A stretch of DNA of 63,102 nt, filler included, from Klebsormidium nitens (GCA_000708835.1; 4 parts of 4 records of this genome joined end to end with filler, not necessarily neighbours in it), one strand, 5' to 3'. Numbered from the whole stretch's first letter, positions 7,275 to 63,102 are shown. Notes: generated from the letters alone by a model not told the origin. A program made the numbers and translations.

Positions 7275-7578
7275 AAAGAGATATCTGATCAGCAATCAGC
7301 TTGCAATAATCTAGCTTCATTCTGCATGTAAGCGCTTGCCCCGACTTTTGTCATCTACTCCAACGCGTGAGATTCATAGCCAGATTTTAGTCGAATCCCC
7401 GAAAGGCCTTTGAACTGTCCTCGATGTTGTACACGGCTATCCGTGAACCGACCGTCTGCAACCACCCGATTCTGTCCTTCAGCATACTCCAAGATGCGCT
7501 TTTTCAGCGCCGTTGCCGACAAAGAGCTAGTCAAGTCTTCTTCTTTCAACCAAGCTCGGAACGCCTCCCCACTGTACA
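7275..7578 (-). pseudogene. Isolated 3' tail of the D5-like primase-helicase gene plus downstream flank (second copy of ~55970-56280)
   Basis: GEAFRAWLKEEDLTSSLSATALKKRILEYAEGQNRVVADGRFTDSRVQHRGQFKGLSGIRLKSGYESHA aligns colinearly with the C-terminus of ORF 55231-56184. Nucleotide similarity continues ~90 nt past the stop. Confidence 0.9.
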
Positions 7579-8528: not shown

Positions 8529-8597
8529 CAACGGAGAGCGACACTAGCATCGACTCAGCCAATCTTCGTGTGCTAGGCATCAACAATGTTCCTCTTT

Positions 8598-9303: not shown

Positions 9304-9439
9304 AGACGCTCGAGCCACTGCGAACATAATCTTGTGACCGTGGCTACATGCATCGATATCGACCGTTCATTGATCGTGCATCAATGCGTGCTTGTAAGCA
9401 ATCGTTTCTGTTGCATGTGCCGGTGCCCATTCGAGTGCA

Positions 9440-11776: not shown

Positions 11777-11889
11777 ATTCGGCTACAGAGACTCGGCCTT
11801 GACCTTTTTGGAACATCCTAAGCGTCAATTAGCGGAGGGGGAGGAAGAAGGCTTGAAGGCTTGTAGCTGCTTTGCAGATGATACGAATA

Positions 11890-42000: not shown

Positions 42001-42311
42001 GACTTTGAGTGGCCACAGATCGCATGTTTGATGAAAAAATGACAGGGATTTTGCCTAAACGAGACGAGCTCCAGTGCTGGCAGGTTCAGGTTGCACTTGG
42101 CCGCTCGTGAACGTACTTAAGGAGCTTCAGTTGTTTGACCTTGCATCCGTTGTGACCTTGAGCCGTTCTGGATCGCTGAGGCATATCAGTACTTCTTGAG
42201 ATTTGCGTCCCNNNNNNNNNNNNNNNNNNNNNNNNNNNNNNNNNNNNNNNNNNNNTTAATTAATTAANNNNNNNNNNNNNNNNNNNNNNNNNNNNNNNNN
42301 NNNNNNNNNNN

Positions 42312-43265: not shown

Positions 43266-43544
43266 CTCCTAAAGAAAGAAGCCACACAACATTTACTGTT
43301 CCATACTTCTGCGCCGTTTTCAAGCGGTTCCTCAGAGGAGATAATGGACCCTTAGCCTGCGGAAGCACGTGCAAGCCCAAACAAGTTTGTTTCTAAGCGA
43401 GACCTTCATGTTGCTTCCGATTGTGGGCGGATAAGCTTCGACTTTGCAAAAGGCTGCCCTTGATCTTCCTCGAATCGACGAACAAGGCGTTCTACTTCGA
43501 GTGCCGTTCTCCAAGTGAGGGCGTCATAGCTCCATAGGGGCAAT

Positions 43545-44152
43545 CAGTCAAAAGGCGCCCATCATTTCTTAGAAGAAAGGAGGGCCGTTCTGACTCTGGC
43601 GGGCCGGATGCTTAGGACTCGGCGCCAGTCAAAAGGCGTCTGTCATTCCTCTAAGGAAGGGAGGGCAGTTCTGACTCTGGCCCATTCTTTGACTGACTGC
43701 GGCAGGCCGGATGATCGAGAGAGCCAGTCAAAAGGCGCCCATAGTTTCTAGAGAGAGGGCGTGCCGTTCTGACTGCAGCATGCCGGTTGTTTGAGAGAGG
43801 GCAGTCAAAAGGCGCCCATCATTTCCCAGAGACGGGGAGAGGCGTTCTGACTGCGGTGGGACGGATGTTCGAGAGAGGGCAGTCAAAAGGCGCCCATCAT
43901 TTTCTGGAGAGAGGAAGGGCCGTTCTGACTACGGTGGGCCGGGTGATTGACAGGCCACTACAGGCCACTAAGGGATTGCTAGAAGGGCTACATGCCAACG
44001 CTCTGCTACGAGTTTGCTCCTGCAAGCCTTGAGGCTTCCCCTCCCGCAACCTTGCTCGGGTTGTCGGCACGTTGCAACACATCCCTTTGGTAAAGGGGTC
44101 AGTCAAAAGTCGCCCATCATATTCTAGAAAGACAGAGGCGACTTCTGACTGT
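43545..44152. repeat. Array of ~six 48-50-bp imperfect hairpin units (AGTCAAAAGGCG...CGTTCTGACT) with related linkers
   Basis: Units at ~43546, 43627, 43726, 43802, 43881 and 44100. Left arm AGTCAAAAGGC pairs with right arm GCCGTTCTGACT. Confidence 0.9.
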
Positions 44153-47100
44153 AGTACCTCAGTTTGTTAGAGCCGAAAGAAGGAGTGAGATTTCATGCGC
44201 GCTCGCTTCGAGCAGCTTGCTTGCAAAGTCTGGCGTGTCAGAGGCGCACCTGATTGCTTGCATTGTCTCGAGCTGCGTCCTCGAAGACTCGGAGAGCGGG
44301 CTCCGAACCCCTCCGATCGGCATCGATAAGCTTAGTTTCGGCTTCCGCTTCGACTCGCATCTCCTGTTTCGGCAACATCTTGGCTGCCTCAGTGAGAAAC
44401 AAACCCTTTGCTTTGATTGTAGTATCGAAAGCGGCTAGCATCTTGAGAAGATTGCGGGCGCACGTTTCACAGACAGCGTTGGTTCATCACAAGATTCTGT
44501 TGAGACGGCCTAGAAAAGCGTACAGATTTGCCGAGTTTCGAGGAGACTACAAAGGGATCAACATGTGGCTGAGCCGCCTTGCTTGCAACATGGGTCAAAC
44601 ATTTACAAGTGTTGCAAGCAACATCAACATGCAATGCGGCGGTACCATACGTCTATACAATGGAGCCGCATCCGTTCTAGCGGATCTCTCAGCGGATTAT
44701 GCGGCGGACCACTCCTCACTTTCTACATTTCCATTGCCGCTTGCAGCTTGTCAATGATTATACCTGGGCTTGCTCAATCGGACTGCAAATCTCCACTGGA
44801 CACCCAACCAGAGCACGTGCCGCAATCTGCTTCAGAGCGCCTTGCCCCTGCACACCATGGGATGGATCAGGCGAGCGCAACAGGTATACGATTTCAATAC
44901 AAGCTCACTCTTCAAGAAGATGACGCAAGACGGCAGAATTCGGGTCAACCTAGGCCTGCTATGCATCAATACACTCATTCTACGAATTGTGATTTTCGGA
45001 AAAAGGAGCCTATCTTTTTTGGGGATTGTGCAAGGCGCAAAAGCTTACCCGTTTCAGACCAACGAGCGGCTTACCTGTCTAAGTGGTTGCAGTGTGGGTG
45101 CAGTCTCCTCCTCTGATTTTTACGAGTGAATCACGCGGCAACGCTTTCTCTCGAGCTCTTGGCCTGTTGGTACGACCCCACCAACGTCCTCCGCAAGCGG
45201 ATCATCATTTGTCTCTGAGCAACACTGATCTTCCCGTTTGGGTGATTGAGAAAAAAGGACGCAACAAGCCGATTTAGAGCGCGGGAGAAAAGCTCACCGG
45301 TGATCAGCGCCACTGATCGATCAATCACGCATTCGCGACGGGATTGATGGGTTTGTCCGACGCCTCTAAGCTTGCGCCTCAGCAATGCAAGAGACTCCAT
45401 GACAGTGAAATCAAATCAAATAAGGCGCAGAGAAAAGGTTGATAGCATCAGATTTTCGCCATCCAGTCGTGAAGTGTCGTCTTGCTGACTGTGGTATGAG
45501 AATTTCTAAGAACCAGCTTCTGAAACAGCTGCCAGTAGACCAAATAACATCTGGAAAGGTGAATGACTCATCTTGTACAGCATAGGAAACCCATGAGTGG
45601 CCTCACAGCAGCAGGCACCACTTCGACCTAAGAGCAATTTAAAGAGAAAGCCGATCAGAGATTTAATGCTGGAAACGGAAATCTTCGAGCCAATCATCGA
45701 TCCGGGACGGTGTATGCGACTCACTGGAGGCCTCTTCCTCTTGCCAATGGGCCCAAGGGCAACCTTAACCGGGCTTAAAGTGTCCTCGTTGTCGAGTGCC
45801 CTGTAGAAGCTTGGCCCTTGCATGTTGCTGGCGAAATCATGATCGTCGAAGAAACCCTGTAGTGACTTTCCAGACTGGGACCCATCAACGGATCGATAAG
45901 CGTATTCAACGCCTTCGATGTCCTCTCCTTGGGAATCCTCCGACTCTGACGAGTCACTGTAATCACAGCTGCAACAACTATGTAAAACGTCCATAACCAG
46001 GTGTAAAAAGACAAAATTCTTTTGCCGCAATCCGCAATCCGCGGCCCCGCTTGAGACTCGCAACTCACTCCGCCTGAGGTGAAAGAGTACAGTCCGTTTG
46101 TATCATGGAATGCAACGTTGAATTAGGTTATCGAGTGCTTCGTTCGTGCGCACTTTTCAACGTGCCTATCTCTTAACCCTTGAACAATTCTCAGACCCGA
46201 GGTTGTGTTCAGAAATGCACTCACCTTTGCCAGGGAAGGCGCATGTCACTGGCCATCACCCTAGCTCTGGTGACGCTCACAGCCAACCAGCAAGCAGTCG
46301 GGTCCGCAGCTCAGCAGCGCTCACCGCCCGGGTCAGCTCTAGCTGCTCATGAGCTGCACACGGTTTGAGCTTCCAAGGGCTGATCAAACTGCAGCGTGCA
46401 CACTGGCACCACACTTAAGACTGGCACCACTGGCGGGAATCACCACTGGCTCCGTACAATTTGATCCACTGGCAAACTGGCACCACCAGCGCGGATAATT
46501 AGTGGCATGTACGGCTGGCATCACTGGCACCCAGTGGCATCTCTGGCGCGGATCGTCACTGCCATCACCACCGGCTCTGGCACCACTGGCATCTCTCAGC
46601 AGCTCCGAGCCTGACGGTTTCGAAGCGGACGCCACGCACTGCCGCTGTGCTGACTCTTGGAATGGATCGCTACTTCGTCTATAGTATAATAGCCTGTACC
46701 CGAACGAGTCAGCTCAACGTGCTACAGAACAAGGCGCTTAGCCTAGTTCAAAGTTGGGATGTGTTTCTGAGGATGCATTGAGCTTGGAATAGAAGGATTC
46801 GGAAGTGCTCTACTTGGGAATGAATGAAATGAGAGAGTTTCTGAGCTTTTATACCTCATTTTCCGGCCGGCCCAGACCGTCCGAAGCAGGCTTGCAGCGT
46901 GCTCACGTGGCTTGCAGCCTGCTCACGTGGCCGGGGCAGGCTTTACGTGACCTTCTAGAACCGCTGAGTTGGCGTAAAACTAAGCAGTCTAACCTAGTCA
47001 AAGTCGGTCCAAGCCGGGTTGCTGAGTCAGTACTCTTCAGGGTGCCAGGTCAGACTGAACCTTCTGAAAAATGCAACCGCCTGAACTTTTATCGACGGTG

Positions 47101-48859
47101 GGGTGTCCTTCCAGTTCCTTCCATTGGACGGTGAGGTGTCCTTTCCTTTCTCGAGTCCGACCGTACTCGGAGTCGGAGTGACACGATCGGACGGCCCATC
47201 CACACTGGCAAACCGGCAGCCCGGGCCGCCCGCCAGTCACTCCCTCAGTGACGGCTCAAGTCTGAAACCTGCGCGCGCTGCTCGCGACAGGACGTCGATT
47301 CTTGTTCGGACGGCAAAACTTCATAACTGCGATGGTCAGCGGCCGGTTTCGGGGCGACCTTGATGCGGAGGGGCAGCGGGTCTTGCCTAAAGGGGGGACA
47401 CGTGTCACTTTTGCGTTGGTCCGTTTCTGGCAAGTTGTCTGAAATCCGGCATATAATCGGCCGAAGCCGAGCCGCCACGTGCCCCCCTCTTCGCTTCTGC
47501 CGGTGCCCTTGAGATTCCGCTACGGGGTCTCTCCGACCGGGTCTGTTCCCGAGTGCAACATTTTGAGGGCAAGAAAACGCGCCTCGCACAGTTCACGACG
47601 AATGCGCGTAGGGCCCCGTACTTATGCGCATACTTCTGGCCATCCGTGTACGCATTTGATCGACCACCTCGACCAGACTCAGCCTCGACTGCAGCGGACT
47701 GCGGGCTTGGAACATTCAAGTCGGCGAAGGCAAATTTTCAATCTCTAATTTCTATATGCCTTCGGCAACAGAACGCCAGTGCGACCCGGGTTGCAGCACT
47801 TAAAGCCTGGACCCATGGCTTTGGAGAAAATTTGCAAATTTGTGCATGTTCGGTTGATCGATGGATTGAATCGGCAGCACGTTACTATTTCAGCCTTTGA
47901 CGGACCCTCATGTGCCTTATGATGGAAACCCCTGCAAAAGAGCAGGTGTACGTCAAACATGCTTAATCAATCACCATTCTTTCTCCGTTGTGGTCGAGAT
48001 GTTCTGGAAAGTACATGTACGTTCCATGCCGGGGAACAAGTATCCAACGTGTTTTTTAAGTCAAGAGCTCCATATTGGATGGTGTACCACATTAAGACTT
48101 GCATGATCGTCCTTCGAGATTGGATTTACTACTGAAGGGACCGACATATGAAGTGCTGTCAATGAGTGCCATACTTCTATGCTTACGGAGCCATTTGGGC
48201 GCAGATATGCAATGTTGAGTGATAAGTGTTAATATTTTTAGCTTGAAGTCAGTATGCAACGCTCTACAATCGAAGCATTGGAAGGAGTGCTTGGCAAATG
48301 ATATCCGTCAATAGCGAGAAAAGTGAACGAAATTGAGCAGCGTCAAGTCATGTTTCGCAGCACTTGTTACAACACCAAGGCCTCTCTTCTTGGCTCGTCA
48401 TGCAATATCACGTAGGTTTCAATGCCCATTTTGGGTTCACACTTGAGGACGCAAATATAGTACAAGTACAGCAACCTGATTGCTGCAAACTTCCATGGTC
48501 CTCAATAACGAGGTTCAGAGAAATATGTAATCGGCTCCCTTTTAATGCACATGCAGCGCTATCAGGGCACATTCCAGAATGTTCAAACAGGCGCCTCCCG
48601 TTGGTCCAAGTGTACACCAGTGTACACCAGACTTCGGCACCAGACTTGGGACTTCTAACCAGCCAGTAGTCCTCTTGAATGCATCCGTACCTTCTTTACT
48701 TCCCACTTGCACCGTCCCCTGTTATCGCCAAAGACTTGCGAGATTACACGNNNNNNNNNNNNNNNNNNNNNNNNNNNNNNNNNNNNNNNNNNNNTTAATT
48801 AATTAANNNNNNNNNNNNNNNNNNNNNNNNNNNNNNNNNNNNNNNNNNNNTTTATCCGA

Positions 48860-49410
48860 TGCAAGGCCTGGCACAGACTCTACATGGTCGTCCATCGCTG
48901 ACGTCATCCAAGTGCGGGCCTGTGTTGGCTTCACATTATCAGAGCCTGTGCTTGTCTTGGCTTTGCGGTGTCCAAAGTGTCCAAGGCCTGGCACAGACTC
49001 TTCATGGTCGTCCATCGCTGATGTCATCAGAGCTCGGGCCTGTCTCGGCTTTGCGGTGTCCAAAGTGTCCAAGGCCTGGCACAGACTCTTCATGGTCGTC
49101 CATCGCTGACGTCATCAGAGCTCGGGCCTGTCTCACAGTGTCCAAGTGTCCAAGGTGTCTAAGCTCTGGCACAGACTCTTCATGGTCGTGTGTCCAAGGT
49201 TTGGCACAAACTCTTCATGGTCGCCCATCGCTGACGTCATCAGAGCTCGGGCCTGTCTTGGCTGCACGGTGTCCAATGTGTCCAAGGTCTGGCAGACAAT
49301 CTTCACGGTCGTCCATCGCCGACGTCATCAGAGCTCGGCCTCTCTCACCGTGTCCAAGTGTCCAAGGTCTGGCAGACAATCTTCGCGGTCGTCCATTGCT
49401 GACGTCATCA
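48860..49410 (+). repeat. Repeat family A array (~6-7 units, ~78 bp) at the left end of the virus-like module
   Basis: GTGTCCAAAGTGTCCAAGGCCTGGCACAGACTCTTCATGGTCGTCCATCGCTGACGTCATCAGAGCTCGGGCCTGTC repeated; begins at an N-gap. Confidence 0.95.
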
Positions 49411-49477
49411 TTCTCTATTGTCATTCGGACCTCTTATCTAAGCACCTGCAACTTGAAACCACTTCGAGGCTCTGCAA

Positions 49478-49981
49478 TTAGTTTGATTCTGACTGTGAAT
49501 CAGAATTGGAATCGACAGATTCTGCTCTCTTTCTTGGAGCCGCCTTCTTTCTAAAGCTTTTCTTTGTGGTGGTCTTGCTAGTCATTTTTGCCCTCGAAAC
49601 CTTCTTTGAAGAACTCATACTCTCGATGTCTTTGATCTCCATCTTTGTAGCTATACTCTGAAAGGTGCCCTCGAATGGCAAACCTGTCGGGCAATTACTT
49701 TTCTTCACCGGACCAATCTCGACCGAATACCCGTACTTCTTGTTCAATGAACGTCGCGAAGTCTCTTGTATGGGGACTACCACCTTCTGTGGAAGAGAAA
49801 CCTTTTTTCCCTGACATTTCTGCGTCCGAAAGAGTCGGGACCCTGCGCGGGCTCTTGCTTGACAGATGCGCCCCTTCTTCGCGTCGATCTCGAGTCGCGT
49901 ATCTTTCAATAGAGCAAGGGCATCATTCCCCTTCGCATCGTAGGCAGCGATCAGCCGAAAGCTTCGCTTCGCGGTTTCCAT
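49478..49981 (-). CDS. Basic 167-aa protein, possibly MC1-like DNA-architectural protein with a Lys-rich tail
   Basis: KRSFRL...KGND, KKGR...ARAGSRLFR and IQETSRRSLNKKYGYSVEIGPV resemble the RxFxL / GR...AA.KA / RETTRGS.KKxYxY pattern I recall for archaeal MC1 and its giant-virus homologues; tail KKVSRAKMTSKTTTKKSFRKKAAPRKR. Confidence 0.5.
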   Translation of the reverse strand: METAKRSFRLIAAYDAKGNDALALLKDTRLEIDAKKGRICQARARAGSRLFRTQKCQGKKVSLPQKVVVPIQETSRRSLNKKYGYSVEIGPVKKSNCPTGLPFEGTFQSIATKMEIKDIESMSSSKKVSRAKMTSKTTTKKSFRKKAAPRKRAESVDSNSDSQSESN

Positions 49982-50152
49982 ATCGGTTGGCCTGGTGCAC
50001 TTTTAATAATAGCTTCGTAGAAAATAATCCCGCCCCCTGAGGCATGTTGTACTATGCGGATTCAAGAATATCCGTTGCATGCAAGAACATAGAGTGCATT
50101 TGGTGTGAAATGCCCGCGGGGAGACAATGAAAACGTAACAAGTGCATTTTAA

Positions 50153-50195
50153 ATAACTAGTTATTCTCCTGAGAAATCCCGGGATTCCTAAGGAA
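50153..50195. promoter_or_regulatory. Cluster of three palindromes in the AT-rich divergent intergenic region
   Basis: ATAACTAGTTAT (50153-50164), AATCCCGGGATT (50175-50186), TTCCTAAGGAA (50185-50195). Function is inferred only. Confidence 0.4.
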
Positions 50196-50352
50196 TTTTC
50201 GGCCCCCCGCACGCAGTTTCAAGAAAATAAGCGTTTAGGAGAGGTTTCGATGTCATTTTATTGTGACCGACCTTTTTGAAATAACTTGTTGCGAGATGGA
50301 AGACATTAATTATAAAATTATTTTCTTGCGTCATCGTAGACGGGTGATAACT

Positions 50353-51168
50353 ATGGATGCTCTACGGAAGGTCTTAGCTGATGGGATTAGGACCGAGAGT
50401 TCCACCGAGCAGTATCTCAAGGGGATTCAGCTTCTATGGAACATGGTCTTTGAGGATGAAATGCCGGAGGATCCATCGTGGATCAAGAACAAGGCTCAGA
50501 AGATCGTTGCAGCTGTTCTAGAGCGCTATGATAACCCTGGTTCCAGGCGTACTCGCTTAGCCCTTTTTCTTGCTATTTGTCGCAAACTCGGCTATGCGGA
50601 GGCTTATCAGACCTACTATGAGCCGTTCCGAAAGGAAAACAAGGCTCTGAAGGAGACCGCTCAACGAAAGATTGAGACAAAGGCCTTGGACGCCGTACCA
50701 GAGATGACCGTTGAAGAAGTCGAAACATTTGGAAAGAAGCTCGCACGCAAGGTCAGACAGTTGAGTCTCGAAGACATGGATCGAGATCTCACTCCTAAGG
50801 AGGTAAAGATCTGCATGTGGCATCTCGTCCTTGAATGGCACATGCTTCTGAGTAAGGAGCATCGTCGTCGCGTAAAATTGCACGAGTTTCCACTCCTGCA
50901 AAAGGGCCAACAGATTGAGGGAGCGAGTTATTTGCTGCAGACCTCACGACGCAAGGGAGATTACAAACTCGTCTTCGAAGACGGAGATCGAATCCCTCTA
51001 ACCAAGATGCTGATCAAGTATCTCCATCGAACCCTTCGATTGATACCTCGAGATTACTTTTTGACTTCTGTCACCCAGCCGCAAACGGCTATGACCGCTA
51101 GCAACTGGTCAATGTTCTTGAGTAAGATTCAATACAATGGAAAGCGCTTCAATCCAGATCGAATGTGA
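50353..51168 (+). CDS. Tyrosine-recombinase-like paralogue lacking the catalytic C-terminus (~271 aa)
   Basis: Same layout as the adjacent YR: TESSTEQYLKGIQLL (cf. SDSTVSVYIRQLKTV), CMWHLVLEWH (cf. VMDHLILALY), LRLIPRDYFL (cf. FNLIPRKHLI). It ends at YNGKRFNPDRM* with no LRH, GHS or catalytic Tyr. Confidence 0.6.
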   Translation: MDALRKVLADGIRTESSTEQYLKGIQLLWNMVFEDEMPEDPSWIKNKAQKIVAAVLERYDNPGSRRTRLALFLAICRKLGYAEAYQTYYEPFRKENKALKETAQRKIETKALDAVPEMTVEEVETFGKKLARKVRQLSLEDMDRDLTPKEVKICMWHLVLEWHMLLSKEHRRRVKLHEFPLLQKGQQIEGASYLLQTSRRKGDYKLVFEDGDRIPLTKMLIKYLHRTLRLIPRDYFLTSVTQPQTAMTASNWSMFLSKIQYNGKRFNPDRM

Positions 51169-51230
51169 GACGTCTGTATCTTACAAAAAATATCTATAAA
51201 GATTAGTAACAACGAGGTGGTTTCACGGCA

Positions 51231-52269
51231 ATGGATTCTAATTTCGAAGCAGAGATTCGCAGAAAACTGAAGGTTCAATCTCCTGATAAGGTTCTCCGCG
51301 GAGATCCGCCAAACAGATCAGATTCAACGGTGTCTGTTTACATCAGGCAACTTAAGACCGTATATGCGGCTGGAGACTTTGGGCCGGACGTGATGAACGA
51401 TCTTGACTGGATCAAGGATCACGAGCAGGTGATTTCGACCATCGAGAGTCTAACGTCGCGTGATGGCAAACTTCTTAAATCATTGACGAAGAGTAATTAT
51501 GCAGCCCCTTTTGCTATTCTTGCTGCTGGAGAGACGCAATCGGTTTACTCGAAGTACATGCAAAGGATGAAGCCAACCGAGGAGGAGCTCGATCATTCTA
51601 TGCAGAGGAAGACACCAAAGGAAGTCGACAACTGGTTGGGCCGAGCTCTTAGAAAAGCGATCGGAACTCGACGATCAGATCCACCGCTATGTCGTGCCGA
51701 GATTCCATAACAAGGAACGCTTAGATCGTTATGATAAGCAGCTGGTGATGGACCATTTGATCCTTGCACTCTACACGATGCCACTGGGACCTTTGCGAAA
51801 TGAATATGCGGAATGCATCTTTTTCATGAGGGATCACGAGAATGATCGCGTTGCGATCGAACCGGGTGACATCAACGTCGTCGAGCCGAAGGACGATCCC
51901 GAGCAGTGTTTCTTTCACATCGGTCGACACAAGACCCTCGAAAAGGATGGAGTTCGGCGCCTTGATATTCCCGAGGATCTCGTAAAGGTTATACTCAGAT
52001 CCTTCAATCTGATTCCTAGAAAACATTTGATCCTTAAGAGGCATTATCTCGTCTGGAAAGATGAACCAATATCGAACTTCACCGTAGTTCTCAACGACCT
52101 TGGTCAACGTCATTTCGGTAGAAATCTTAGCTGCACTCTGCTTCGACACATCTCACATACTGAACAGAGTCCAAAGCTAACGTCTCGTGGTGAAGTGAGA
52201 GCAAAGGCACAATACATGGGCCATAGCATGAGGACTGCGGATGAACTCTATAATAGACGATTCAAATGA
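51231..52269 (+). pseudogene. Tyrosine recombinase/integrase of PLV/virophage type, split by one frameshift near 51636
   Basis: Catalytic set intact in the second frame: PLRNEY (R), RHKT (K), TLLRH (R-H), MGHS...LY (H, Y). The second frame is open from 51637 (WAELLEKR), and joining it to the first frame's DNW restores an NW-x-x-W motif. Confidence 0.85.
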
Positions 52270-52365
52270 GTGGGCAATTCTCTTCTTTCTGTACTTTGTG
52301 TGCGTTCTCTGAGGAGCAATTTTTCTATGTTAGAGTTATCAGGAGGCATCAACTGCACTCCAGCT

Positions 52366-52560
52366 ATGGAATCGACGAATCACAAACATGGATCGACCAC
52401 GTGTGCTGCTTGTCTCGAGGCGAGCATCTATAAGGACGAGCATCAGGCCAAGAAGAGAGAATATTCGAAGAGTTACTATCAGATACATAAAGACGAGATC
52501 CTCTTGAAGAAGGCTCTTGAACGATTGCGAAGGGAAGCAAGACAAGCAGACGGACGAGGC
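52366..52560 (+). CDS. Small ORF segment upstream of and in frame with the primase (CxxC plus KREYSKSYYQIHKDEIL); possibly once a separate gene
   Basis: TCAACLE...KKREYSKSYYQIHKDEILLKK resembles low-complexity helical motifs in small DNA-virus proteins; weak. Confidence 0.3.
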
Positions 52561-52725
52561 AGCGACTTTATGAGGCACAGGCTGCTCTTCCTTGGATTCG
52601 ATCGTACTAGACAATTACACCTCTTTGGCAAGCGTGGGCTCCGTCGGGAGCCGCGTTCCATGTCAAAAATTTTTTGGGGTTGGAAATATAAGGAGGCTCC
52701 GAACCTCCTTCGGTCTGTTGAAACC

Positions 52726-55700
52726 ATGGCAACGAACTCGATTGCGCACGTGTTAGAAGCGTATGCACAAGAAGGACTATACGCTATCCCGGCAAAAGTC
52801 AAAGCAACGGACGAAGGATCGAAGCACATTCTGGCAACGATGCCGCATGCGAAAGGCAATGACGCTATACGAACGGTGTCCGATTGGAGAATGGCAAGGG
52901 ATCGAATCATGGAAAAGATTGAAAAAGATCGATTCAACTTTCTGGCGATAAAGACGGGAACCATTTCAGACATCTTCGTGCTCGATATAGACACACAAGA
53001 CAAACTAGAAAAAGATCTCCAAGCTGGCATGCCTCTCTGGAATAGATTGATTGCGGAACACGGAGAATCAGGCACTTTGAAAGCCACTTCAGCCAGCGGA
53101 GGCCTCCATTACTACTTCTCGTACGGTGAATCACTCAACGAGGGACTCCAATCAGGGAAGTGTTTCGCTGGAGTAGACTATGAGGGCCAGTATTGTGGAA
53201 TAGATGGGCGCGGAGACGAAGGCGTTGTTCTGGCCCCGCCAGGCTCACCTCAGATTGGATTGAATTACACTTGGTGCGCACAACCCTTAAGGACGAACAT
53301 CCGACCAGCTCCATCATCGTTGATCCGATTTCTCAACGATTCTGCTGAGAGATCCGCAAACAAGAGTCCCGTGTCGACTTCGAGCGATCGAATTCAAGAT
53401 TTGTTAGCAAACGGTGCTGATATCAAGCAAACAAGGGGGCTTGAATCAAGCACCGTCGAAGAAACAATGCGAGTGGAGGTGGATACCGATGACTCACACA
53501 ATAGACAAGCACTCCAGCACAAGAGGATTGCTGATGCGATGATGCAGCTGTTACAAGACCGTGCTGGACTCGACACGGAGGTTCGCTTCTCTGGCAACGT
53601 GACCTTTCGCGGTTCGTACGGTATGCTCTATTCATTCATCTGTGATGGTCCTCGAACCTGCATACATGGTCATCAACACACTGGTAGCAACGATTTGACT
53701 CTTGTGAAGCGAGAATGGACGGTGTTCTATCGATGCTTTGGCTCCGAATGCACCGAGAAGCCTCTTACGGAGCTTGGCAACATTCCAATACCAATATCGT
53801 TGTTGGATGCAAATCCTGTACGTCTGCACCCGGCTCATGATTGGAGTACCTTTCCAAATAACATAAGAACGATGTTGCAGGATGCGGTGGAAGCACACAT
53901 GAATCTTATCCGACGTAACGTGACGCAGCGCTATCGAGGCATGGCTGCGATCTTCTCGGCCATGTATCTCGTTAATTGACGGACGCATCATTGCTGAGGG
54001 CAAATGCTTTCACTACTGAAACGGTCGCAGATGGATAATCGATAACGCGTTCCATATACAAACCGTCTTCAGTAACCACATGGCTCGTATCATGACCTGG
54101 TATTCGAAACAGAGATTGAAAGCTTTCAAGCATGAGATTTTTGCACATATGAGAGGCTCTGCAACAGAGCAGAACGTCTTATCAACGCTAGAGTCAGTTC
54201 TTCCAGATTGGGCAATGAACCCAACGACCGAAGAAGAAAGAAAAGCATGCAACACTNNNNNNNNNNNNNNNNNNNNNNNNNNNNNNNNNNNNNNNNNNNN
54301 NNNNNNNNNNNNNNNNNNNNNNNNNNNNNNNNNNNNNNNNNNNNNNNNNNNNNNNNNNNNNNNNNNNNNNNNNNNNNNNNNNNNNNNNNNNNNNNNNNNN
54401 NNNNNNNNNNNNNNNNNNNNNNNNNNNNNNNNNNNNNNNNNNNNNNNNNNNNNNNNNNNNNNNNNNNNNNNNNNNNNNNNNNNNNNNNNNNNNNNNNNNN
54501 NNNNNNNNNNNNNNNNNNNNNNNNNNNNNNNNNNNNNNNNNNNNNNNNNNNNNNNNNNNNNNNNNNNNNNNNNNNNNNNNNNNNNNNNNNNNNNNNNNNN
54601 NNNNNNNNNNNNNNNNNNNNNNNNNNNNNNNNNNNNNNNNNNNNNNNNNNNNNNNNNNNNNNNNNNNNNNNNNNNNNNNNNNNNNNNNNNNNNNNNNNNN
54701 NNNNNNNNNNNNNNNNNNNNNNNNNNNNNNNNNNNNNNNNNNNNNNNNNNNNNNNNNNNNNNNNNNNNNNNNNNNNNNNNNNNNNNNNNNNNNNNNNNNN
54801 NNNNNNNNNNNNNNNNNNNNNNNNNNNNNNNNNNNNNNNNNNNNNNNNNNNNNNNNNNNNNNNNNNNNNNNNNNNNNNNNNNNNNNNNNNNNNNNNNNNN
54901 NNNNNNNNNNNNNNNNNNNNNNNNNNNNNNNNNNNGTCCGAGATTCGTGTATGTCTCGAATTTGTCATGAACTCCTTGCAGGCTCCCCAACCTTTCAGCG
55001 AGATGATGGATATTGCCAATCCGTTCTTGTTTGCGTGTGCAAACGGTGTCATTAACACCGAAATCGGAAAGTTGCTTGCATTCCATCCTGCTCACATGTG
55101 TTCGCGCGCGTCGAAAGCAACTTTTCGTGGAATGCCAAATGCCGGGAGCCGATTCGAGAGGTTCCTGCTTGATTGCTTCAACGATGACAAAGAAGTACTC
55201 GAATAGTATCAGCTCTTCTGCGGCTATTGTATGATGGCAGATACGAGTGAACAATTGTTCCTCGTCAAGCAAGGCAGTGGAGCTAATGGAAAATCGTTGA
55301 CAAAGCTGGCAAGTCTCGAAGTTCTAGGCACTTACGCTGTTGTTATGTCAGAAGGCTGCATCATTGAGGCTGGTAAACGGTCGGCTGGCGCGGCTTCGAG
55401 CCACATTATGGCTCTTCGAGGCGGGCGGCTCGCTGAGACCGACGAGTCGGGAGAGAAAGCAATCTTGAATGAGGCCGCAATGAAAGCCCTATCGAGCGGG
55501 GGGACCACTACAAGGCGCGAGCTGCATAGCAGACAAGAGACGTTCGAGCTCACTGTGAAGACCGTCTCCAACACGAACTACAAGCCTATTCTTCAGAACG
55601 TATCCTACTGTGTCACTCGACACTTGGCACTACTCCCGATGTTGGTCACTTTTTTACCTTCCAAAAAGCTTGACTCTAGCAAACCACGCCAAAAGCTTAT

Positions 55701-56184
55701 TGATACGACATTGGAAACCTATTTGAAAAGCGACCAAGGTCGAGACGAGGGTCTTTCATGGTACGCAGAAGGAGCAAGACGTTATCATGAATTCAAGCGA
55801 GCGAATCCCAACACGCTGCCACTGATGCGCAGACCTCGTGTCATGGAAGAAGCTGTTAGAGCATACATCAACGACTCGGACATAGCTAGGCAATGGATCG
55901 TCGACTGTCTCGAATTCGAAGATCTCCAACCCGGGGAAAGAGCGACATGGCACTTAGCCGTTGGCGAACGGCTCGGAGAGGTGTTCCGAGCTTGGTTGAA
56001 GGAAGAAGACTTGACTAGCTCTCTGTCAGCAACGGCGCTAAAAAAGCGCATCGTGGAGTATGCTGAAGGCAGGAATCGGCTGGTTACAGACGGTCGATTT
56101 ACGGATAGCCAGATTCAATCCCGAGGACAGTTCAAAGGCCTTTCGGGGGTTCGACTGAAGTCTGGCTTCGAACCTCATGCGTAA
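52726..56184 (+). pseudogene. Prim-Pol (bifunctional primase/polymerase), Zn-binding domain and D5-like SF3 helicase; decayed and interrupted by gap 54257-54935
   Basis: AIKTGTISDIFVLDID, TSASGGLHYYF, IDGRGDEGVVLAPPGS (Prim-Pol); CDGPRTCIHGHQH...FYRCFGSEC (Zn); FACANGVIN (D5_N); GSGANGKS Walker A, RLAETDES Walker B, SNTNYKP motif C. Frameshift at ~53976 and stops at ~54016 and ~55204. Confidence 0.9.
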
Positions 56185-56294
56185 GAGTGGACGACGACGG
56201 TCGGAGCACGCGTTTGCATGCAGATGAGAGCTATAGAACTTGCAAGCTGGTTGTTTGATAAGATATACATTCCTTGTCTGAGTTCTCGTCTGAA

Positions 56295-56615
56295 GGTCTG
56301 CAGACCAGATGTCTATAAGACCACGATTTCAAGTAATTTCGATCTCGGAATTCTTGGAGACTTCTGGTCTGCAGACCAAAAGTCTATAAGACCACGATTT
56401 CAAGTAATTTCGATTTCAGAATTCTTTTAGGGACCATGATTGCTATAATAGAAAAGACCTGGGATCCGGGTCTTCTGGGCTTCTGGTCTGCAGACCAATA
56501 GTCTATAAGACCACGATTTCCAGTAATCTCGACTTCAAAATTCTTCAGGGACCATGATTGCTATGATAGAAAAGACCTGGAATCCGGGTCTCCTGGGCTT
56601 CTGGTCTGCGGCCCC
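56295..56615. repeat. Tandem ~70/120-bp repeats containing the perfect palindrome GGTCTGCAGACC (14 bp TGGTCTGCAGACCA in two units), just downstream of the helicase
   Basis: Palindromes at 56295, 56365 and 56484 (degenerate at 56604), each followed by TCTATAAGACCACGATTTC in the first three. Confidence 0.92.
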
Positions 56616-56803
56616 ATCTAGGCACGATTGTGCCACTGGCACAAGTACCTTTCACGTTTGCACCGAAGTGGCATAGCTTCTTCAAGTGATAATAACCATA
56701 CATTAAGCACATCGATGCTGTTGGACCATGCATGCAACATATGATAGAACATACAAGTCATGGTAACAATTCGGTTGGTGTTTCGATTGTTTCGACAGTG
56801 TTT

Positions 56804-59800
56804 TCAGTACATCAAGAGTCGTTGCCGTACAGACGGGCTCCATGTGTCTGCTCTGCCCGCAATGCGCAGCTTTGGTTCGTCAACGCGTGCTAGATCGCTA
56901 TTCCGTCCGCTGACCAGGTTAGCGAGAATGACCATGAACGCTATGAGGCTGCTATACCACGCTTGCGTCTTGAAGTTTACGAGAAACGCGCTGCACGACT
57001 CCACTGCCGATGTATTGACCCATCGCACGGAGTCGTAGTAGTGTGCATGTGATTCATACGAGGTCTAAGTTAGTCATCATAGAAAAGCTTTCAGACATGG
57101 CGTTGTAGAAGAATGTTGCATAGACATGCACTTTCGAAAGGCAGTCAGAACTTGCCTCCCTATTCTATAGAAGAGAGAGGGCGTTTTTGACTGAGTCTTA
57201 TTAAACTTGCTTCTTTGCACACACAATCTGGATGGGTGGCCCCTTCGAGCCAAGTCAAAGTACATGTGCCTTGCAGATGCATCAGGGTCTTACCTGTGTT
57301 GTATGATGGACCGCACTTGTGCGCCTCGGCGGTTGTATGGTGGAAGTGGAATCTGCAAGGATCAAGCACGGATTGAGAACAAAATATGTACAGCGGTGCA
57401 CAGCTGAGGAAAGTCGCAATGCACTATGGCAATGGCATGGAAGATTACACGCATTGCTCTCAACAAAGAAGCCCCCTTGGCTTGCGCAATCTTCGGACCT
57501 TACCTATCGACCAGGAACCGAACGTGCGCAAAGAACGCCGGCTCTCTCCGCATCGCGTAGGCGCGCAGCTTGCAGGCGTTGTCGTGGACGAGAATCAGGG
57601 GAAGATTTCTCCGATTGAGTCGAGTGTAGAGGATGGTGAAGGGATCTCGCGGCGATTCCCCCCGTAGCATGACGTGGAAACCATAGATGACACAATGAGG
57701 GCACGTAAAGACGAAGCCGCCCTTTGTGTGCCGTTGCAAGCGCTTGTTCTTCTTTATCCCGCTTTCTAGAGCAACCTTGGCATCGAATTCCCCGAAGGTG
57801 AGCCCGCTTCGACACCGGTGCTCCTCGTCGCTCTCGCGAGACCTACCGAGGTCGTCTTCAAATGGTTCGTACTGCGGGAGGGGCCGTTTCTGCTCCCACC
57901 CCGGAAGCGGGTAGCAGCCTAGCTCTCGTTGCTCACGGCAATAGGGATGATCGGAGGGAAGAGGACCAGGCTCCGATCCGTCCGCCTCGAGACCGAGCCG
58001 CTCGTTCAGCAAGATCCGCTCTGGCGGAAGGAGGGCGTACTCGTGCGGATCTGGAGGGGACAGGCTTTCGACCCCTGGGAGAAGAGCATTTGCTCGGGCC
58101 GCCCAGAAGTCGAAGGCTTGCTGCTGCTCGAAGCTCAAGGGTTTCGGCTCCCGCTCCAGCATCACGCAGACATCGAGGCCTTCGATGGCCGATTACGCCC
58201 ACCCCGCCCGCCCGACCCCAAGACCCATCGCCCCCCGCGCAAACAACGTCAAACGGTATAGGTGGTGTAGCACAGGATGGAAATACCCAGGAAAGCGGTC
58301 ACCGTAGTGGTCTAGCAGCCGGTGCAGGATTGGAGAATGCTCGGCCAACACGACCCTGTCGTCGTCGTTTGCGGCTCCCCCTAGCAGAAGCTTGCGGACC
58401 ACTCCCAGGGCCTTCCCATGCTGGATGAGGTTGGAGTCGTCCGAGACCAAGAACGGCGCCCCGAGAGTGTAGAGCAATTCCGCCCATCTGTGGGGGCAGC
58501 GGGGAGGCCATCGGAGCTCGACTTGCATTGATTCTCTCTCGACGCCCTCAAGCAGCTCGCACACCGCTTTGTTCTTCGATTTTATCTGGCCGACTTGATG
58601 GCGCAGGACCCGTCGACGCCAGTGCAAGAGAACGGGGTCGGCATCGGCATCATCCGGATCTTGGACGAAGTCCACGGCGACCTGCACGTCGTCTCTGTCA
58701 ACCGCGACCTGCACAAAAAGAGTCCGGCTCCGGTCAGGGATTAAACAATACTCGATGTCTAGTCCGTTTGAATGCATTGTTTGAATCAATGACAAACGCA
58801 TGGTGTCGGAAAGACAGACATGCTTACGATGGGCATGCTTGGATTGATATCAGAACTCACCAGGAGCTCCCCGTATTCTCGTGCACTGAGCGCCTTCCCC
58901 AACTCTGGATCAGCAGCATGGTGTCCGCTGAACCGCGCTAGAAGCGTCCGGAGCTCGGGTTGATGCAAGAGACGCTTTTTCAGGCCCCCTCCCAACAAAG
59001 ACGCCGCCAAGTAGTTGCTTCCGGCCTCCATTACTTTCCGCACGTTGACTCCATCGGAGCCTTGACTTGGCGCAGTGAAGGGCCGAAGCAAGGCGGCATC
59101 CGTTCCGGCAAGCCCACCCTTCTGACGTGTGCCGTCAGCGCAAGCAAGCCCCACGATGCCGTCGCATAGGAGTACCTTCACAAAGAGACAACATAGTACT
59201 CTTGAAAGGGTGAATCTCATATGTCTTGATTGCCCACGCTCCGATGACGTTAGCAACGCGCGACCGCAAAAAGTTTGTGCTAGACCTTGAACACTTGGAC
59301 ACGCCAAGACGGGGTCTCCCTCCGATGACGTCAGCAACAAACGACCGCGAAAAGTTTGTGCTAGACCTTGGACACTTGGACACGCTAAGACGGGGCCTCC
59401 CTCCGATGACGGCAGCAACGAGCAACAGCAAAAGTTTGTGCTAGACCTTGGACACTTGGACACGCCGAGACGGGCTCTTCTTCCGATGACGTCAGCAACA
59501 AGCGACCGCAAAAAATTTGTGTCAGACCTTGGACACTTGGACACGCCAAAATATGCAAACCGTGACTTGGTTGATATCTGACGATATGATCATAAGGTAA
59601 GGTGCGTAAGAATTTCGATGGTGGTAGGAACTGAGCACCAAGTGCCATCATGCTTGCGAACGTGGGCGTTAAGTGTTGCAAGACATACCTCCGGATGTGG
59701 CCCGCACAGAGAGCAGCACTCCATGATCTGCCGCCCACACAGCTTGAAGAAGCCAAGGTTGCCTTACGCCAACACTCCTCTGACAAGATGGTCGCATCGG

Positions 59801-62450
59801 GGTTGTATTGACGCCGCACAGTCCTTGCAGCTGCAACGAGCGAGCTGAAAGCAGCACCCGTATTCTGAACGTCTCGTAGCAGTATCTGACAGGCTTTTTG
59901 CGTGATGACCACCCCGCGCGTCCAAGCGTACAAGCCGAGGGCCTCCCCGTTGAAATGAACGGTATGCTTCTCGGGGCATGCGCAGCAGTAGATACGGAGC
60001 TTGACCTGCACAAAAACGAAGACCAAGGTGCCGTCTGATGATTTGACAGCTTCGATTGGAAGCACGGCTGAGAGCTCTAGGATGACTCGCAATTAGAAGT
60101 GACTCAACATCACACGAGTTTAATCTGCGTCAAGCATCTCTCTTGACTAAAATCTTTCTCTTACTCTTTTCATATGTTCGTTGGACGTTGTGCCATCCAA
60201 TCAATCTTTGCAAGAGGGTCAACTACAGGCGTGCACGATGGTGATCTTACCTCTTGCGACCAATACAAGTCGTATATTTGTGCACTCTGCCACAGACACG
60301 ACCATTGGGTCTTGCAAGGGGTTGGCCCTCGCGGGCACGGGGCGGAGAGTCTCTCCGCAGCGCTCAGCTCCTCAAAACCCCGGGCCGTGAGCTCGCTCAC
60401 TCGAACGGGCCTTTGCAGCAGCGACACCTCGGGGTCGTGGACCTGCCAAGAGTCCATCGGGCGAACGAGCTTGGGCACTTCCAGCTGCACGCCCTCAACT
60501 TCCATGGGCAACACCGTCGCAACACCGCGGGAGGCACCATGCGTGCACACGTTTGAGGGGCACACGCAGATGTTACACACTGGAATCGAGAAAGCGTTCC
60601 GATCATCGATCTGGGGGGCGCTCTCCGTTCCCCGCTTTCTCTCCTCGGCTGCATCCAACCCAACCTCCCCCATGCTGCCCGTTGCAGCGTCCACCTCCTC
60701 CCGCTCTATGCCTTTTGCCGCCCAGAGCGATTTGGTTCTCCGTTTGCCTGATTTCGCACTCGCCTCCCCAACGCCACCGGAGTTTTCTCCTTGCTCCGAT
60801 CGGACTCGTTTTTCGTTCGTCTGAGCAGACGCGCAGCACCTTGCTGCACAAGGCTCCTCGTCCACATCAACGCCGCCAAACACCCTCGGATGCTGCTTAC
60901 AGAAGCAACTTGGCCCTTCGCATGCGGCCCTCTCGTGACTGCCGACGACCAACTCCGCGAGGTACCCGTCCACGTCGGCGTCTGGCGCACACTCCTTGCC
61001 GTGCGCCATGCCGTCACCACCCTGGCGATCCCCCAGCCCGTCCTTCATAGACGTTTTTGCGAGCTCGAGCTGCTCCTCCGAAAACGAACTCCTGCTCAGC
61101 TTTTCCACTCCGCTAGGTCTGCTCAAAGCTCGCTTCACCCCTTGAATGTGCAAACAGTCAGCCGTCTTGCTGCATCCGCCACGCTTCTGACCCTCACAAT
61201 ACCAGCCTTTCTGCACCCCCTCTCCATAGTGGACCATCGTCCTCTTAGGGGAGGGCGAACCGACATTCCAGTACACCCCAAAAACCCGCTCTCCGGTTCT
61301 ATCGCATGGTATTTCCACTACACGCGGCCCCTTCTGCAGCGATATGGCGCTCGCTAGCCCTGGCGGCTCCAATGCCTGTAGCACAAGCTTGTGCACGCAC
61401 GGCGCCCGAGAGTACCGTCGGCCGCAATCGCATGTGCAGCTCAGGTTCCCCGTGGTTTCTCAATGCACCGTCTCGAGCAATGCGCGCACTTTGCTGGGGC
61501 GCCCGAGAGGTTTGGGTCTGGCGGTGTTGTGATTCCAAGTGCTAGCCAGGTAGACAGGACTGGCGGATCCAGGCTCGCCAACGCTGTAGAAAGCGCACTC
61601 TCCTGATCGGAGGCCATCGAGATACATCACAGCTTGGTCGATGATGGTCCGGCAACCCTCCATGTCGGACGCTTCGCCGTTCTCCGAGTGAAGTTGCCCC
61701 TGCATCCACAACAACAACATCTGGTTAGACATGCCGCAATTGGTGGAAGACTTGTAGACGCTCCACAAGGCTCCTAGCCGCGGTGTGATCCATCAGCATG
61801 AGATTCTTGACTTTTCCTCTATTCCTGAATGGATTTTTCTTGTTGTGCACACTTGGATCAATTACGCAGCATTCTCTAGGCTTAAAAAGAGCATACGGAT
61901 AGTGCTCAATCAAACATTCACAAACAGATGCAGAGACTTCCAGGAATGGAAAATCTGCATTCCCGCTTACCTCCACTTGCGCGCTGGACCTTGCTGTCTC
62001 CCCCACCTTTCAACCCCTGTTCACCGCTGCTTGCGCTGCAGTAGTCTTGCGGCGCCCGCCTGGCCGTTCCTCCTCTGCCTTCTCTTGCAGTCTGCCAATC
62101 TCGGCCCCAGACACCGAGTCTTTCACTTGGCTCCATGGCTCCCCTAGTTTTTCGCGCTGGAACCAGACTTCGGCTGAACCCACCGAGCTCCGGGTGGTCC
62201 TTGCTACGCTGATTGTGAGCTTGTTAGCACACTGGGTGACGGGACCGAAATGCCGCTTTACGCACTCAAGACAAAGAGGCCAGCGCTTTTTCTGACCTCT
62301 GGCGACCGATTCGGGTGAGCTGATTGCAAAGCCCTTCAGTGCATGGTTTTTCCGGAATGTGAGTTGGTAGTTCTGTCACAAGTGTTTGTTTGCAAAGTGG
62401 GCATTTGGTAGCTAGTGAATTGGCGGGGTCGGCTCCGTAGGCTTGTGGAT
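56804..62450 (-). mobile_element. Decayed intron-containing KDZ-superfamily (Kyakuja-Dileera-Zisupton/HMGXB3-like) transposase gene
   Basis: SWIM-like SCTCDCGRRYSRAPCVH and WYCEG...CSKTADCLH; CxC-type CPRGPTPC, YCCACPEKH, CCSLCGPHPE|VLLCDG; core GGFVFTCPHCVIYGFHVMLRGESPRDPFTILYTR...VHDNACKL...FLVDR|FHF...CGPSY; last exon VNTSAVESCSAFL...FMVIL. In-frame stops at ~61460 and ~62004 and frameshifts at ~59760 and ~58200. The 5' end is beyond or near the window edge. Confidence 0.85.
59235..59550 (-). repeat. Repeat family A array (4 units, ~79 bp) inside a KDZ intron, minus orientation
   Basis: AAGTTTGTGCTAGACCTTGGACACTTGGACACGCC...CCGATGACGTCAGCAAC units between exons CGPHPE and VLLCDG. Confidence 0.92.
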
Positions 62451-63102
62451 CTACAATAATGTTGCCACAGCTAACCTCCCTCTGACTGGAGATGTTCAGT
62501 CGGGCCAGACTGAATCCCGGGGTTGATTGCATGTTCCCCGAGCTCCCTCAAGATGTCAAGAGGGGTGGCCGGACTGCTTGCTGGTTAGCGATGGTTGTCT
62601 CTGGTAGAGTGCTAGATAGGTCGGAAAGACTCGGATGCGGAAGAGGGCCAGTTAGAAAATGAAAAGAAATGAGCGAATATCTGACCTTTTGTACCCTGAT
62701 TTCCGGGTCGGGTGCCCTGTTGGCAGACCTTCTCGGACGGTCCAGTAGCCTGCTTACGTGGTCGGGTGCTCTGTTGGCAGGCTTTCCAAAAGGTCCACTC
62801 AATTGTACATATCCGGCGGGCAGTCCGGCGGGTTGTTGTCGTCAGATGGGTCAGACTGTTAACCCGATCGACCGCCCCGGGCCCTAAACCGACACTTGCG
62901 GCACCCGGAACGATTCACTTCCGCGCTCCATGTCGAGCAGGGGGTCTCGGGGGCCGTCAATTTTATGCCATTGAACAGATGGTGAACCCTGCCCTGGCCG
63001 AAAAGCTCCATCGAACTACGCCACCCGAAACGGCAGTTGACGCCAGCTTGACCGTCAGGAAGCGCGGGGCAGCCATCGTGGTTTGTTGCAGCACTGAATC
63101 CA

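What the first reader, a model, noticed from the sequence alone, without database searches (positions are those of the whole stretch)
48860..56615. Capsid-less virus-like replicon integrated in a plant-lineage genome: MC1-like, paired tyrosine recombinases and Prim-Pol/D5 helicase
Seen: four intronless, tightly packed genes amid intron-rich host genes, bounded by two different repeat arrays. Known: this YR type and Prim-Pol/D5 SF3 fusions are hallmark genes of Polinton-like viruses, virophages and transpovirons. Seen: no double-jelly-roll capsid, penton, A32 ATPase or pPolB between the arrays. Inference: a compact self-replicating, self-integrating element, or a reduced PLV, with its own DNA-packing protein. 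I do not recognise this combination as a described family.
Basis: partly seen in the sequence, partly recalled or inferred. Interest (0 to 1): 0.85.

Follow-up and report, generated by a model that had tools for sequence, protein, structure and literature searches.

The report
Capsid-less virus-derived mobile element in alga
This is a broken copy of a multi-copy mobile DNA family with relatives in the green alga Klebsormidium; it carries a primase-helicase gene, a likely recombinase with an inactive-looking twin and a likely DNA-packing protein but no visible capsid gene, is probably joined to a cut-and-paste transposase gene, and likely copies and re-inserts itself without making virus particles.

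Summary
The virus-type cassette is real and belongs to a multi-copy family with named relatives in Klebsormidium nitens. It has five genes, not four: MC1-like protein, a tyrosine-recombinase (YR) paralogue that ends before its catalytic motifs in all relatives that reach the C-terminus, a giant-virus/PLV-type YR, an ~80-aa protein, and Prim-Pol/D5 helicase. This copy is broken in the last three; relatives are intact and appear co-located. The 679-N gap hides only ~75 bases, so no capsid gene fits inside. But the arrays are not the ends: the 88-bp repeat occurs five times in the window, and related DNA in other runs continues collinearly through an intron-bearing SWIM-CxC4-KDZ transposase-like gene to ~62.2-62.8 kb. 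The unit is probably >=13 kb and composite; no single record spans the join. The left end lies behind an assembly spacer, so capsid genes there are not excluded. Best reading (0.5): a capsid-less element that excises and integrates by YR and copies itself by Prim-Pol/D5, in this subfamily fused to a KDZ gene. Not found in nine literature searches.

The parts
48862..49410 (.). Array of ~88-bp repeats; starts at the contig edge, so its left end and the element's left end are unseen; same repeat family at 7578, 9445, 12356 and 59232
49478..49981 (-). MC1-like small basic protein (167 aa, Lys/Ser-rich tail); likely DNA-bending or compacting; frame open
   Evidence: 9 relatives at 67-88%; Foldseek BFVD: 18 of the top 21 rows are named, all giant viruses, 5 labelled MC1 or non-histone chromosomal protein, best E 1.6e-3, model pLDDT 57; no Pfam hit
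50353..51168 (+). YR-derived protein (271 aa; an upstream ATG at 50296 is possible) without the catalytic Lys loop, HxxR box, second His and Tyr; predicted inactive; frame open
   Evidence: hhalign 99.7% to a full-length YR family, 95.2% to the neighbouring YR family; 5 of 5 relatives that reach the C-terminus stop at the same place
51231..52269 (+). Tyrosine recombinase of giant-virus/virophage/PLV type; frame break near 51637 in this copy; intact relatives 347-374 aa with R, K, xxLRH, GHS and Y motifs
   Evidence: Foldseek top 10 PDB rows all XerH/Cre/Tre (E 0.02-0.4); 11 BFVD rows at E<=0.001 incl. Harvfovirus integrase, HaV01 Tyr recombinase, Qinghai Lake virophage
52366..52600 (+). Small ~80-aa gene (CxxC, basic helix), unknown role; broken here so that its frame runs into Prim-Pol; 3' coordinate approximate
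   Evidence: P0036 aa 2-59 matches 52372-52542 at 64%; many 80-aa members beside YR
52660..56184 (+). Prim-Pol (AEP) - D5_N - SF3 helicase fusion; frame break near 53975, stop at 55204-55206; intact relative 968 aa at 92%
   Evidence: profile hits ASFV C962R structures at E 2.7e-18
54257..54935 (.). Assembly gap of 679 N that stands for about 75 bases of the primase gene
   Evidence: contigs of two runs cross it with 75 and 77 letters; 23 residues of P0061 are missing there
56281..56617 (.). 71/118-bp repeat array with a repeated palindrome; joins the 3' ends of D5 and the KDZ-like gene; candidate origin or recombination site (untested)
   Evidence: joints
56807..61792 (-). Decayed, intron-bearing SWIM - CxC4 - KDZ transposase-like gene, tail to tail with D5; ends approximate
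   Evidence: Pfam SWIM E 0.014, CxC4 E 0.003, KDZ E 0.041, each under the curated cut-off but in canonical order on one strand; GT..AG introns; collinear relatives
59232..59550 (.). 81-bp variant of the 88-bp repeat, inverted against the left array, inside an intron of the KDZ-like gene
61800..62800 (.). Region 5' of the KDZ-like gene, still covered by relatives in other runs; the unit's right end probably lies near here
   Evidence: X6 to 62210, X8 to 62487, repeat joints at 62745-62782 in three runs
7281..7570 (-). Second, 83% identical fragment of the D5 3' end, joined directly to an 88-bp array; lies next to host PHD-like exons; no 71/118 array or KDZ behind it

Best explanation
This is a decayed copy of a multi-copy algal mobile DNA family whose five-gene core encodes a Prim-Pol/D5 primase-helicase, a likely tyrosine recombinase, a predicted inactive recombinase twin, a likely MC1-type DNA-packing protein and a small unknown protein, and which likely spreads without a capsid by recombinase excision, self-replication of a circle and re-integration. 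Shown: gene content and order, the breaks in this copy, intact relatives, many divergent family members, no room for a capsid gene between 49478 and 62 kb. Inferred from family knowledge: YR cuts the element out as a circle and puts it back; Prim-Pol/D5 primes and unwinds for copying, with host polymerases or Prim-Pol itself extending; MC1 compacts or bends the free DNA. Speculative: the truncated YR keeps DNA binding and acts as accessory or repressor; the palindromic 71/118-bp array is the origin or a recombination site. In this subfamily the core is probably fused tail to tail with a KDZ transposase gene into a unit of 13 kb or more (about 0.6), which would give it a second route of insertion.
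For: Family: 17 YR clusters at 55-94%, 6 long Prim-Pol/D5 proteins at 60-92% of 25 hits, 9 MC1-like, 9 YR-like relatives of the twin among 11 hits. Co-location, indirect: ten shared longest-contig lengths tie two or three of the genes together, e.g. 54068 (YR, Prim-Pol/D5, MC1), 91093 (YR, Prim-Pol/D5, twin), 50077 (YR, MC1, twin); 4 of 6 long Prim-Pol/D5 and 5 of 9 MC1 share a length with a YR. Direct: the K. nitens gene model P0062 begins with YR residues and P0039 reads from YR into the small gene. Catalytic motifs intact in relatives. Gap holds ~75 bases. Run X6 (another study) has collinear pieces 49684-50686, 50838-51823, 51902-52693, 52695-56324, 56580-59354, 59501-62210, 86-98% alike, the right-hand pieces breaking at the two arrays. 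Run X1 has variant contigs that tie the D5 3' side to the array (56171>56373, 56310>56382) and the array side to the KDZ last exon (56499>56787, 56644>56787, 56663>56788). YR integration through a circle is the accepted reading for PLVs (PMC4642659, PMC12220804, passages).
Against: No end, attachment site, target duplication or empty site was seen; the left end is behind a spacer. No circle, transcript or activity shown. No single record spans D5 to KDZ across the array, and the second fragment at 7281-7570 stops matching at the 56266 equivalent, without array or KDZ. KDZ linkage was seen only for close relatives, not for the 55-60% subfamilies. Pfam is weak on PLV capsids: the likely capsid of the PLV-like contig L001 scored only E 0.11. 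Both folds are low-confidence (pLDDT 56-57). Identities of YR and Prim-Pol/D5 between putatively co-located pairs are not congruent (53 vs 81%, 73 vs 59%): module exchange, or wrong links.
Confidence: 0.5

Rival explanations
1. A large KDZ cut-and-paste transposon that carries the virus-derived cassette as cargo: the KDZ transposase moves the unit, and YR and Prim-Pol/D5 are helpers or passengers.
For: SWIM-CxC4-KDZ order as in Cryptococcus KDZx1 (PMC11343200, passage); collinear relatives and variant joints across the array; KDZ elements carry cargo genes and reach 11 kb (PMC12730594, PMC11343200, passages); fusion of a transposase with a virus genome is known from Teratorn (PMC10175614, abstract).
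Against: The core is conserved across subfamilies down to 55% identity with intact catalytic motifs, which fits a self-sufficient replicon; no inverted termini found; second fragment lacks KDZ; all three KDZ-type Pfam hits are under the cut-off.
Confidence: 0.25
2. One arm of an ordinary Polinton-like virus, virophage or giant-virus insertion whose capsid genes lie beyond the left spacer or were deleted in this copy.
For: The YR's nearest outside relatives are on PLV-like viral contigs (23-24%; L001 has an A32 ATPase) and in giant viruses and a virophage; primase-helicase plus YR is a common PLV set (PMC10120064, passage); the left end is unseen; MC1 is a giant-virus gene.
Against: No relative of the Prim-Pol/D5, MC1 or twin-related YR alignments in viral contigs; nothing capsid-like in 295 frames or by tblastn with 11 L001 proteins apart from YR; what lies left of the array in the second fragment (7785-12493) shows no capsid hit either; an intron-bearing transposase gene is not a PLV trait.
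Confidence: 0.2
3. A chance nest of dead elements, amplified by segmental duplication, or a contaminant or mis-assembly.
For: This copy is broken throughout; the scaffold has four 100-base spacers and two sized gaps; repeats break every assembly seen.
Against: Intact, divergent relatives with kept gene order; in X6 exons of the KDZ-like gene align while two GT..AG introns do not, as under selection; named eukaryotic homologues; nothing in prokaryotic genomes or phages.
Confidence: 0.05

Closest known systems
Polinton-like viruses and virophages with an OLV11-type tyrosine recombinase (PMC4642659; PMC10120064; PMC12220804)
   Same: Related YR (23-24% to PLV-like contigs, fold hits to virophage and algal giant-virus YRs); primase-SF3 helicase as replication gene; compact intronless genes; many integrated copies.
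   Different: No capsid, penton, A32 ATPase or terminal inverted repeats seen; MC1-like gene and an inactive-looking YR twin; likely fused to a KDZ gene. The label OLV11-type for this YR is my reading, not a tested assignment.
KDZ DNA transposons (Kyakuja, Dileera, Zisupton; Cryptococcus KDZx1)
   Same: SWIM-CxC4-KDZ gene with introns; large size with cargo; present in green algae (PMC8226300, passage).
   Different: Known cargo is TET/JBP and unknown genes; a replication plus recombinase cassette was not found in the passages read. Ends and target duplication not seen here.
Teratorn (piggyBac-herpesvirus fusion, PMC10175614)
   Same: A cut-and-paste transposase joined to a DNA-virus-derived gene set.
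   Different: Teratorn is 180 kb and fused to a herpesvirus genome; this unit is ~13 kb+, PLV or giant-virus derived, with no visible virion genes.
Amoebidium Plavaka-associated giant repeats (PMC11244446)
   Same: Intron-poor YR genes clustered beside a DNA transposase in a eukaryote with many viral insertions.
   Different: Plavaka is unrelated to KDZ (PMC12730594); up to 50 kb tandem clusters; no Prim-Pol/D5 or MC1 in the passages seen (the supplementary figure is a picture and was not readable).
Transpovirons (PMC3671162)
   Same: Small capsid-less elements of the giant-virus mobilome.
   Different: Linear plasmids of giant viruses with a superfamily 1 helicase; this is host-integrated with YR and SF3 helicase.
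Cryptons (features recalled; named in PMC12220804)
   Same: Eukaryotic DNA elements moved by a YR.
   Different: Cryptons have no own replication gene; this YR's fold hits are viral.
Prokaryotic integrative replicons with YR plus Prim-Pol/helicase (P4-like satellites, recalled; Thermus ICETh2, search listing only)
   Same: Same functional logic: integrase, primase-polymerase, helicase, no capsid.
   Different: Prokaryotic; no close sequence relative (outside D5 hits 26-36%).

Membership tests
Polinton-like virus | Major and minor capsid proteins plus packaging ATPase | tested here: inconclusive
   None in 295 frames or by tblastn with L001 proteins; no room in 49478-56184; but left end unseen and Pfam weak on such capsids
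Polinton-like virus | Own replication gene (pPolB or primase-helicase) | tested here: met
   Prim-Pol/D5 SF3
Polinton-like virus | Integrase (YR or rve), in many members | tested here: met
Polinton-like virus | Terminal inverted repeats, 15-30 kb | tested here: inconclusive
   No terminal repeat found; the inverted 88/81-bp arrays are 71-86% alike and one lies in an intron; ends unseen
Transpoviron | Superfamily 1 helicase | tested here: not met
   Helicase is D5/SF3; definition from PMC3671162
Transpoviron | Linear episome carried by a giant virus | not testable with these tools
   Integrated next to intron-bearing DNA here; free forms not testable
Crypton | YR as the only enzyme, no replication gene (recalled) | tested here: not met
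   Prim-Pol/D5 is linked to YR in window and relatives
KDZ transposon | KDZ transposase with CxC and SWIM domains | tested here: inconclusive
   All three domains in canonical order, each under the Pfam cut-off (E 0.041, 0.003, 0.014); gene is broken
KDZ transposon | Defined ends with 7-8-bp target duplication | not testable with these tools
   Ends not in view; no whole genome held
Active tyrosine recombinase (first ORF, 50353-51168) | R-K-HxxR-H/W-Y catalytic set | tested here: not met
   Lys loop absent and protein ends before HxxR, His and Tyr, in the window and 5 of 5 relatives reaching the end
Active tyrosine recombinase (second ORF family) | R-K-HxxR-H/W-Y catalytic set | tested here: met
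   LRNE, HKT, LLRH, GHS and a C-terminal Tyr in intact relatives; the first His position of the box is not a His; residue roles assigned from recalled YR motifs; window copy has a frame break
MC1-like protein | MC1 fold as in giant-virus homologues | tested here: inconclusive
   Foldseek rows point to giant-virus MC1 proteins but none reaches E 0.001 and the model is weak; no PDB chain at Z>=5; Atlas gave no usable hit

The most novel reading that the evidence does not exclude
A new class of eukaryotic self-replicating DNA transposon: a never-encapsidated, virus-derived replicon (YR, inactive YR partner, MC1, Prim-Pol/D5) that has radiated in Klebsormidium and in at least one subfamily is fused to a KDZ transposase, so that one element holds two unrelated integration enzymes and its own primase-helicase.
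Probability: 0.35. Interest if true: 0.85.

Novelty: new variant of a known kind. Interest (0 to 1): 0.66.

Why it matters
Whether capsid-less self-replicating elements are ancestors or descendants of Polinton-type viruses is stated as open in PMC3671162 (passage). A multi-copy, capsid-less YR plus primase-helicase family in a cultured, sequenced streptophyte alga would give a testable case, add a eukaryotic counterpart of integrative plasmids to transposon classification, and show virus-transposon fusion at small scale. A conserved inactive recombinase beside an active one and a giant-virus-type MC1 gene raise direct questions on control of excision and on a possible helper giant virus.

Tried and rejected
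No whole genome is held, so no genome-wide search for copies or capsid genes. Two metagenome scans found nothing (YR alignment: 94 pattern matches, 0 confirmed; array pattern: 0). Seven viral scans: only the YR gave loci, 2 distant PLV-like ones; D5, Prim-Pol/D5, MC1, twin-related YR, array and KDZ gave none. Prokaryotic genomes and phages: none. No RNA holder listed; this says nothing on expression. Summed contig depth was not used as copy number. Complex prediction of YR with its twin was not available. Atlas: no usable hit for MC1; for Prim-Pol/D5 only general phage and giant-virus primases. D5 tree (quick method, 25 rows): the 6 family members form one clade on a long branch, with no supported sister. 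YR tree (17 chosen rows; fragments left out): the twin groups with P0057/P0098 at 100/100, not with its neighbour, with a long-branch warning, so a recent tandem duplication is rejected with caution. P0059 and P0060 dropped as low-complexity chance hits. 88/81-bp arrays as terminal inverted repeats: rejected (five sites, one intronic). Earlier findings: four look-ups, nothing. Literature: nine searches listed no paper on this family; Iyer 2014 not held; Repbase and subscription journals could not be searched.


Full report
1. What is in the sequence. Between 49478 and 56184 lie five intronless genes with short spacers. On the minus strand is a 167-aa basic protein; on the plus strand a 271-aa protein, a recombinase gene, a small gene and a primase-helicase gene. 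Mapping intact relatives onto the window shows a frame break in the recombinase near 51637, a break in the small gene, a frame break near 53975 and a stop at 55204-55206 in the primase-helicase. The 679-N gap is over-sized: contigs of two runs cross it with 75 and 77 letters and only 23 residues of the 968-aa relative are missing there. So this copy is decayed, and nothing large hides inside it.

2. What the genes are. Prim-Pol and D5_N pass Pfam cut-offs; relatives keep the primase and Walker motifs and their profile hits ASFV C962R structures. The recombinase has no Pfam match (0 of 18 aligned members). Its family keeps R, K, LRH, GHS and Y motifs (roles recalled), the top 10 PDB fold hits are XerH, Cre or Tre although weak, 11 viral models match at E<=0.001, among them giant-virus and virophage recombinases, and two PLV-like contigs carry a 23-24% relative. 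The 271-aa protein is YR-derived but lacks the Lys loop and ends before the catalytic C-terminal motifs, as do 5 of 5 relatives that reach the end: a conserved, predicted inactive twin, closer to another YR family than to its neighbour (long-branch warning). The 167-aa protein has no profile hit; its low-confidence model retrieves giant-virus proteins, five of the top 21 labelled MC1 or non-histone chromosomal protein, best E 1.6e-3. MC1-like is likely, not proven. MC1 is proposed to compact mimivirus DNA (PMC11464507, passage).

3. A family. Searches gave 17 YR clusters, 6 long Prim-Pol/D5 proteins, 9 MC1-like proteins and 9 relatives of the twin. Two are named Klebsormidium nitens gene models; the window's host is therefore inferred to be of that lineage, in line with E2F, PHD-like and RING exons elsewhere in the window. 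Ten shared longest-contig lengths tie two or three of the genes together; this is indirect. Two gene models that run from YR into the next genes are direct evidence of order. A second D5 fragment at 7281-7570, 83% identical, sits beside host exons. No relative was found in prokaryotic genomes or phages.

4. The 88-bp repeat occurs at five places. To the right of the 71/118-bp array lies a decayed gene on the minus strand with SWIM, CxC4 and KDZ matches in canonical order, each under its cut-off, and GT..AG introns; one intron holds the 81-bp array. This order is that of Cryptococcus KDZx1 (PMC11343200, passage). In run X6, from another study, six collinear pieces cover 49684-62210; those on the right break at the arrays, and two introns fail to align while exons do. 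In run X1 two variant contigs tie the D5 side to the array and three tie the array side to the KDZ last exon. The runs were found with 49420-54256 only, so cover of the KDZ side was not selected for. Against this: no single record crosses the array, the second fragment has no KDZ behind it, and linkage is unknown for distant subfamilies. I put the composite unit at about 0.6. The left end lies behind a 100-base spacer.

5. Capsid-less? None of 295 frames of 75 aa or more hit a capsid, A32 or pPolB family, and of 11 proteins of a PLV-like contig only YR matched significantly. Pfam is weak on such capsids, so the stronger argument is space: everything from 49478 to about 62 kb is accounted for. 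The left arm is unseen and no whole relative could be fetched, which leaves about 0.2 for an ordinary PLV or giant-virus remnant.

6. Mechanism. Committed reading (0.5): YR excises the unit as a circle and re-integrates it, Prim-Pol/D5 copies it, MC1 compacts it, the twin binds DNA as accessory or repressor, and the palindromic array is origin or recombination site. Only the gene content and its conservation are shown; each mechanistic step is inferred from the families (PMC4642659 and PMC12220804, passages). The main rival (0.25) has the KDZ transposase move the whole unit with the cassette as cargo, as KDZ elements do with TET/JBP genes (PMC12730594, passages) and as piggyBac does with a herpesvirus in Teratorn (PMC10175614, abstract).

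7. Comparison and novelty. It works like a PLV without its virion module, or like a prokaryotic integrative replicon. It fails the tests for transpoviron and Crypton; PLV and KDZ membership stay open. The nearest reported arrangement is the Plavaka-flanked YR clusters of Amoebidium (PMC11244446, passages and supplement text; its figure could not be read and may bear on the comparison). Nine searches of open literature listed no description of this family; Repbase and subscription papers were out of reach. Also seen as passages: PMC10120064, PMC3671162, PMC8226300.

8. Verdict. Real, multi-copy and apparently undescribed; larger and more composite than reported, and broken in this copy. New variant of a known kind, interest 0.66; 0.35 that it is a new class of capsid-less self-replicating eukaryotic transposon, which would deserve 0.85.

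Noticed in passing
window 42312-43268 (-), with 78-bp array 43545-44160: A second, unrelated primase-like frame (weak match to AEP_C962R, E 0.05-0.07) cut by a spacer, beside its own repeat array and intronless frames; possibly another virus-derived element.
   Followed up: partly
window 46753-46945 and 62584-62786: A diverged ~200-bp direct repeat (local score 94, shuffle maximum 40); perhaps a shared terminal or promoter motif of two related elements; too diverged for the two ends of one insertion.
   Followed up: partly
window 7785-12493: Block beside the second D5 fragment with two more 88-bp arrays, internal duplications (9180-9508 and 12093-12422) and intronless frames (C2H2-like 7965-8528, coiled coil plus small Cys domain 10645-11043); may be further cargo of the same family.
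   Followed up: partly
proteins P0056, P0057, P0098: A sister family of full-length YRs, closest to the inactive twin, on contigs of 18-75 kb; context unknown.
   Followed up: partly
L001 1-16990: PLV-like viral contig with YR, A32 ATPase, likely capsid, fibre-like protein and a primase-helicase with an origin-binding-protein match.
   Followed up: no
window 12494-12593, 42212-42311, 48751-48850: Three 100-base spacers with a central stop linker; order and linkage of the contigs across them is not assured.
   Followed up: no
window 19878-20984: 132-bp tandem array within the E2F gene region.
   Followed up: no
window 34847-36938 and 39962-41984: Diverged duplication of about 67-79% identity without a recognised protein.
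   Followed up: no
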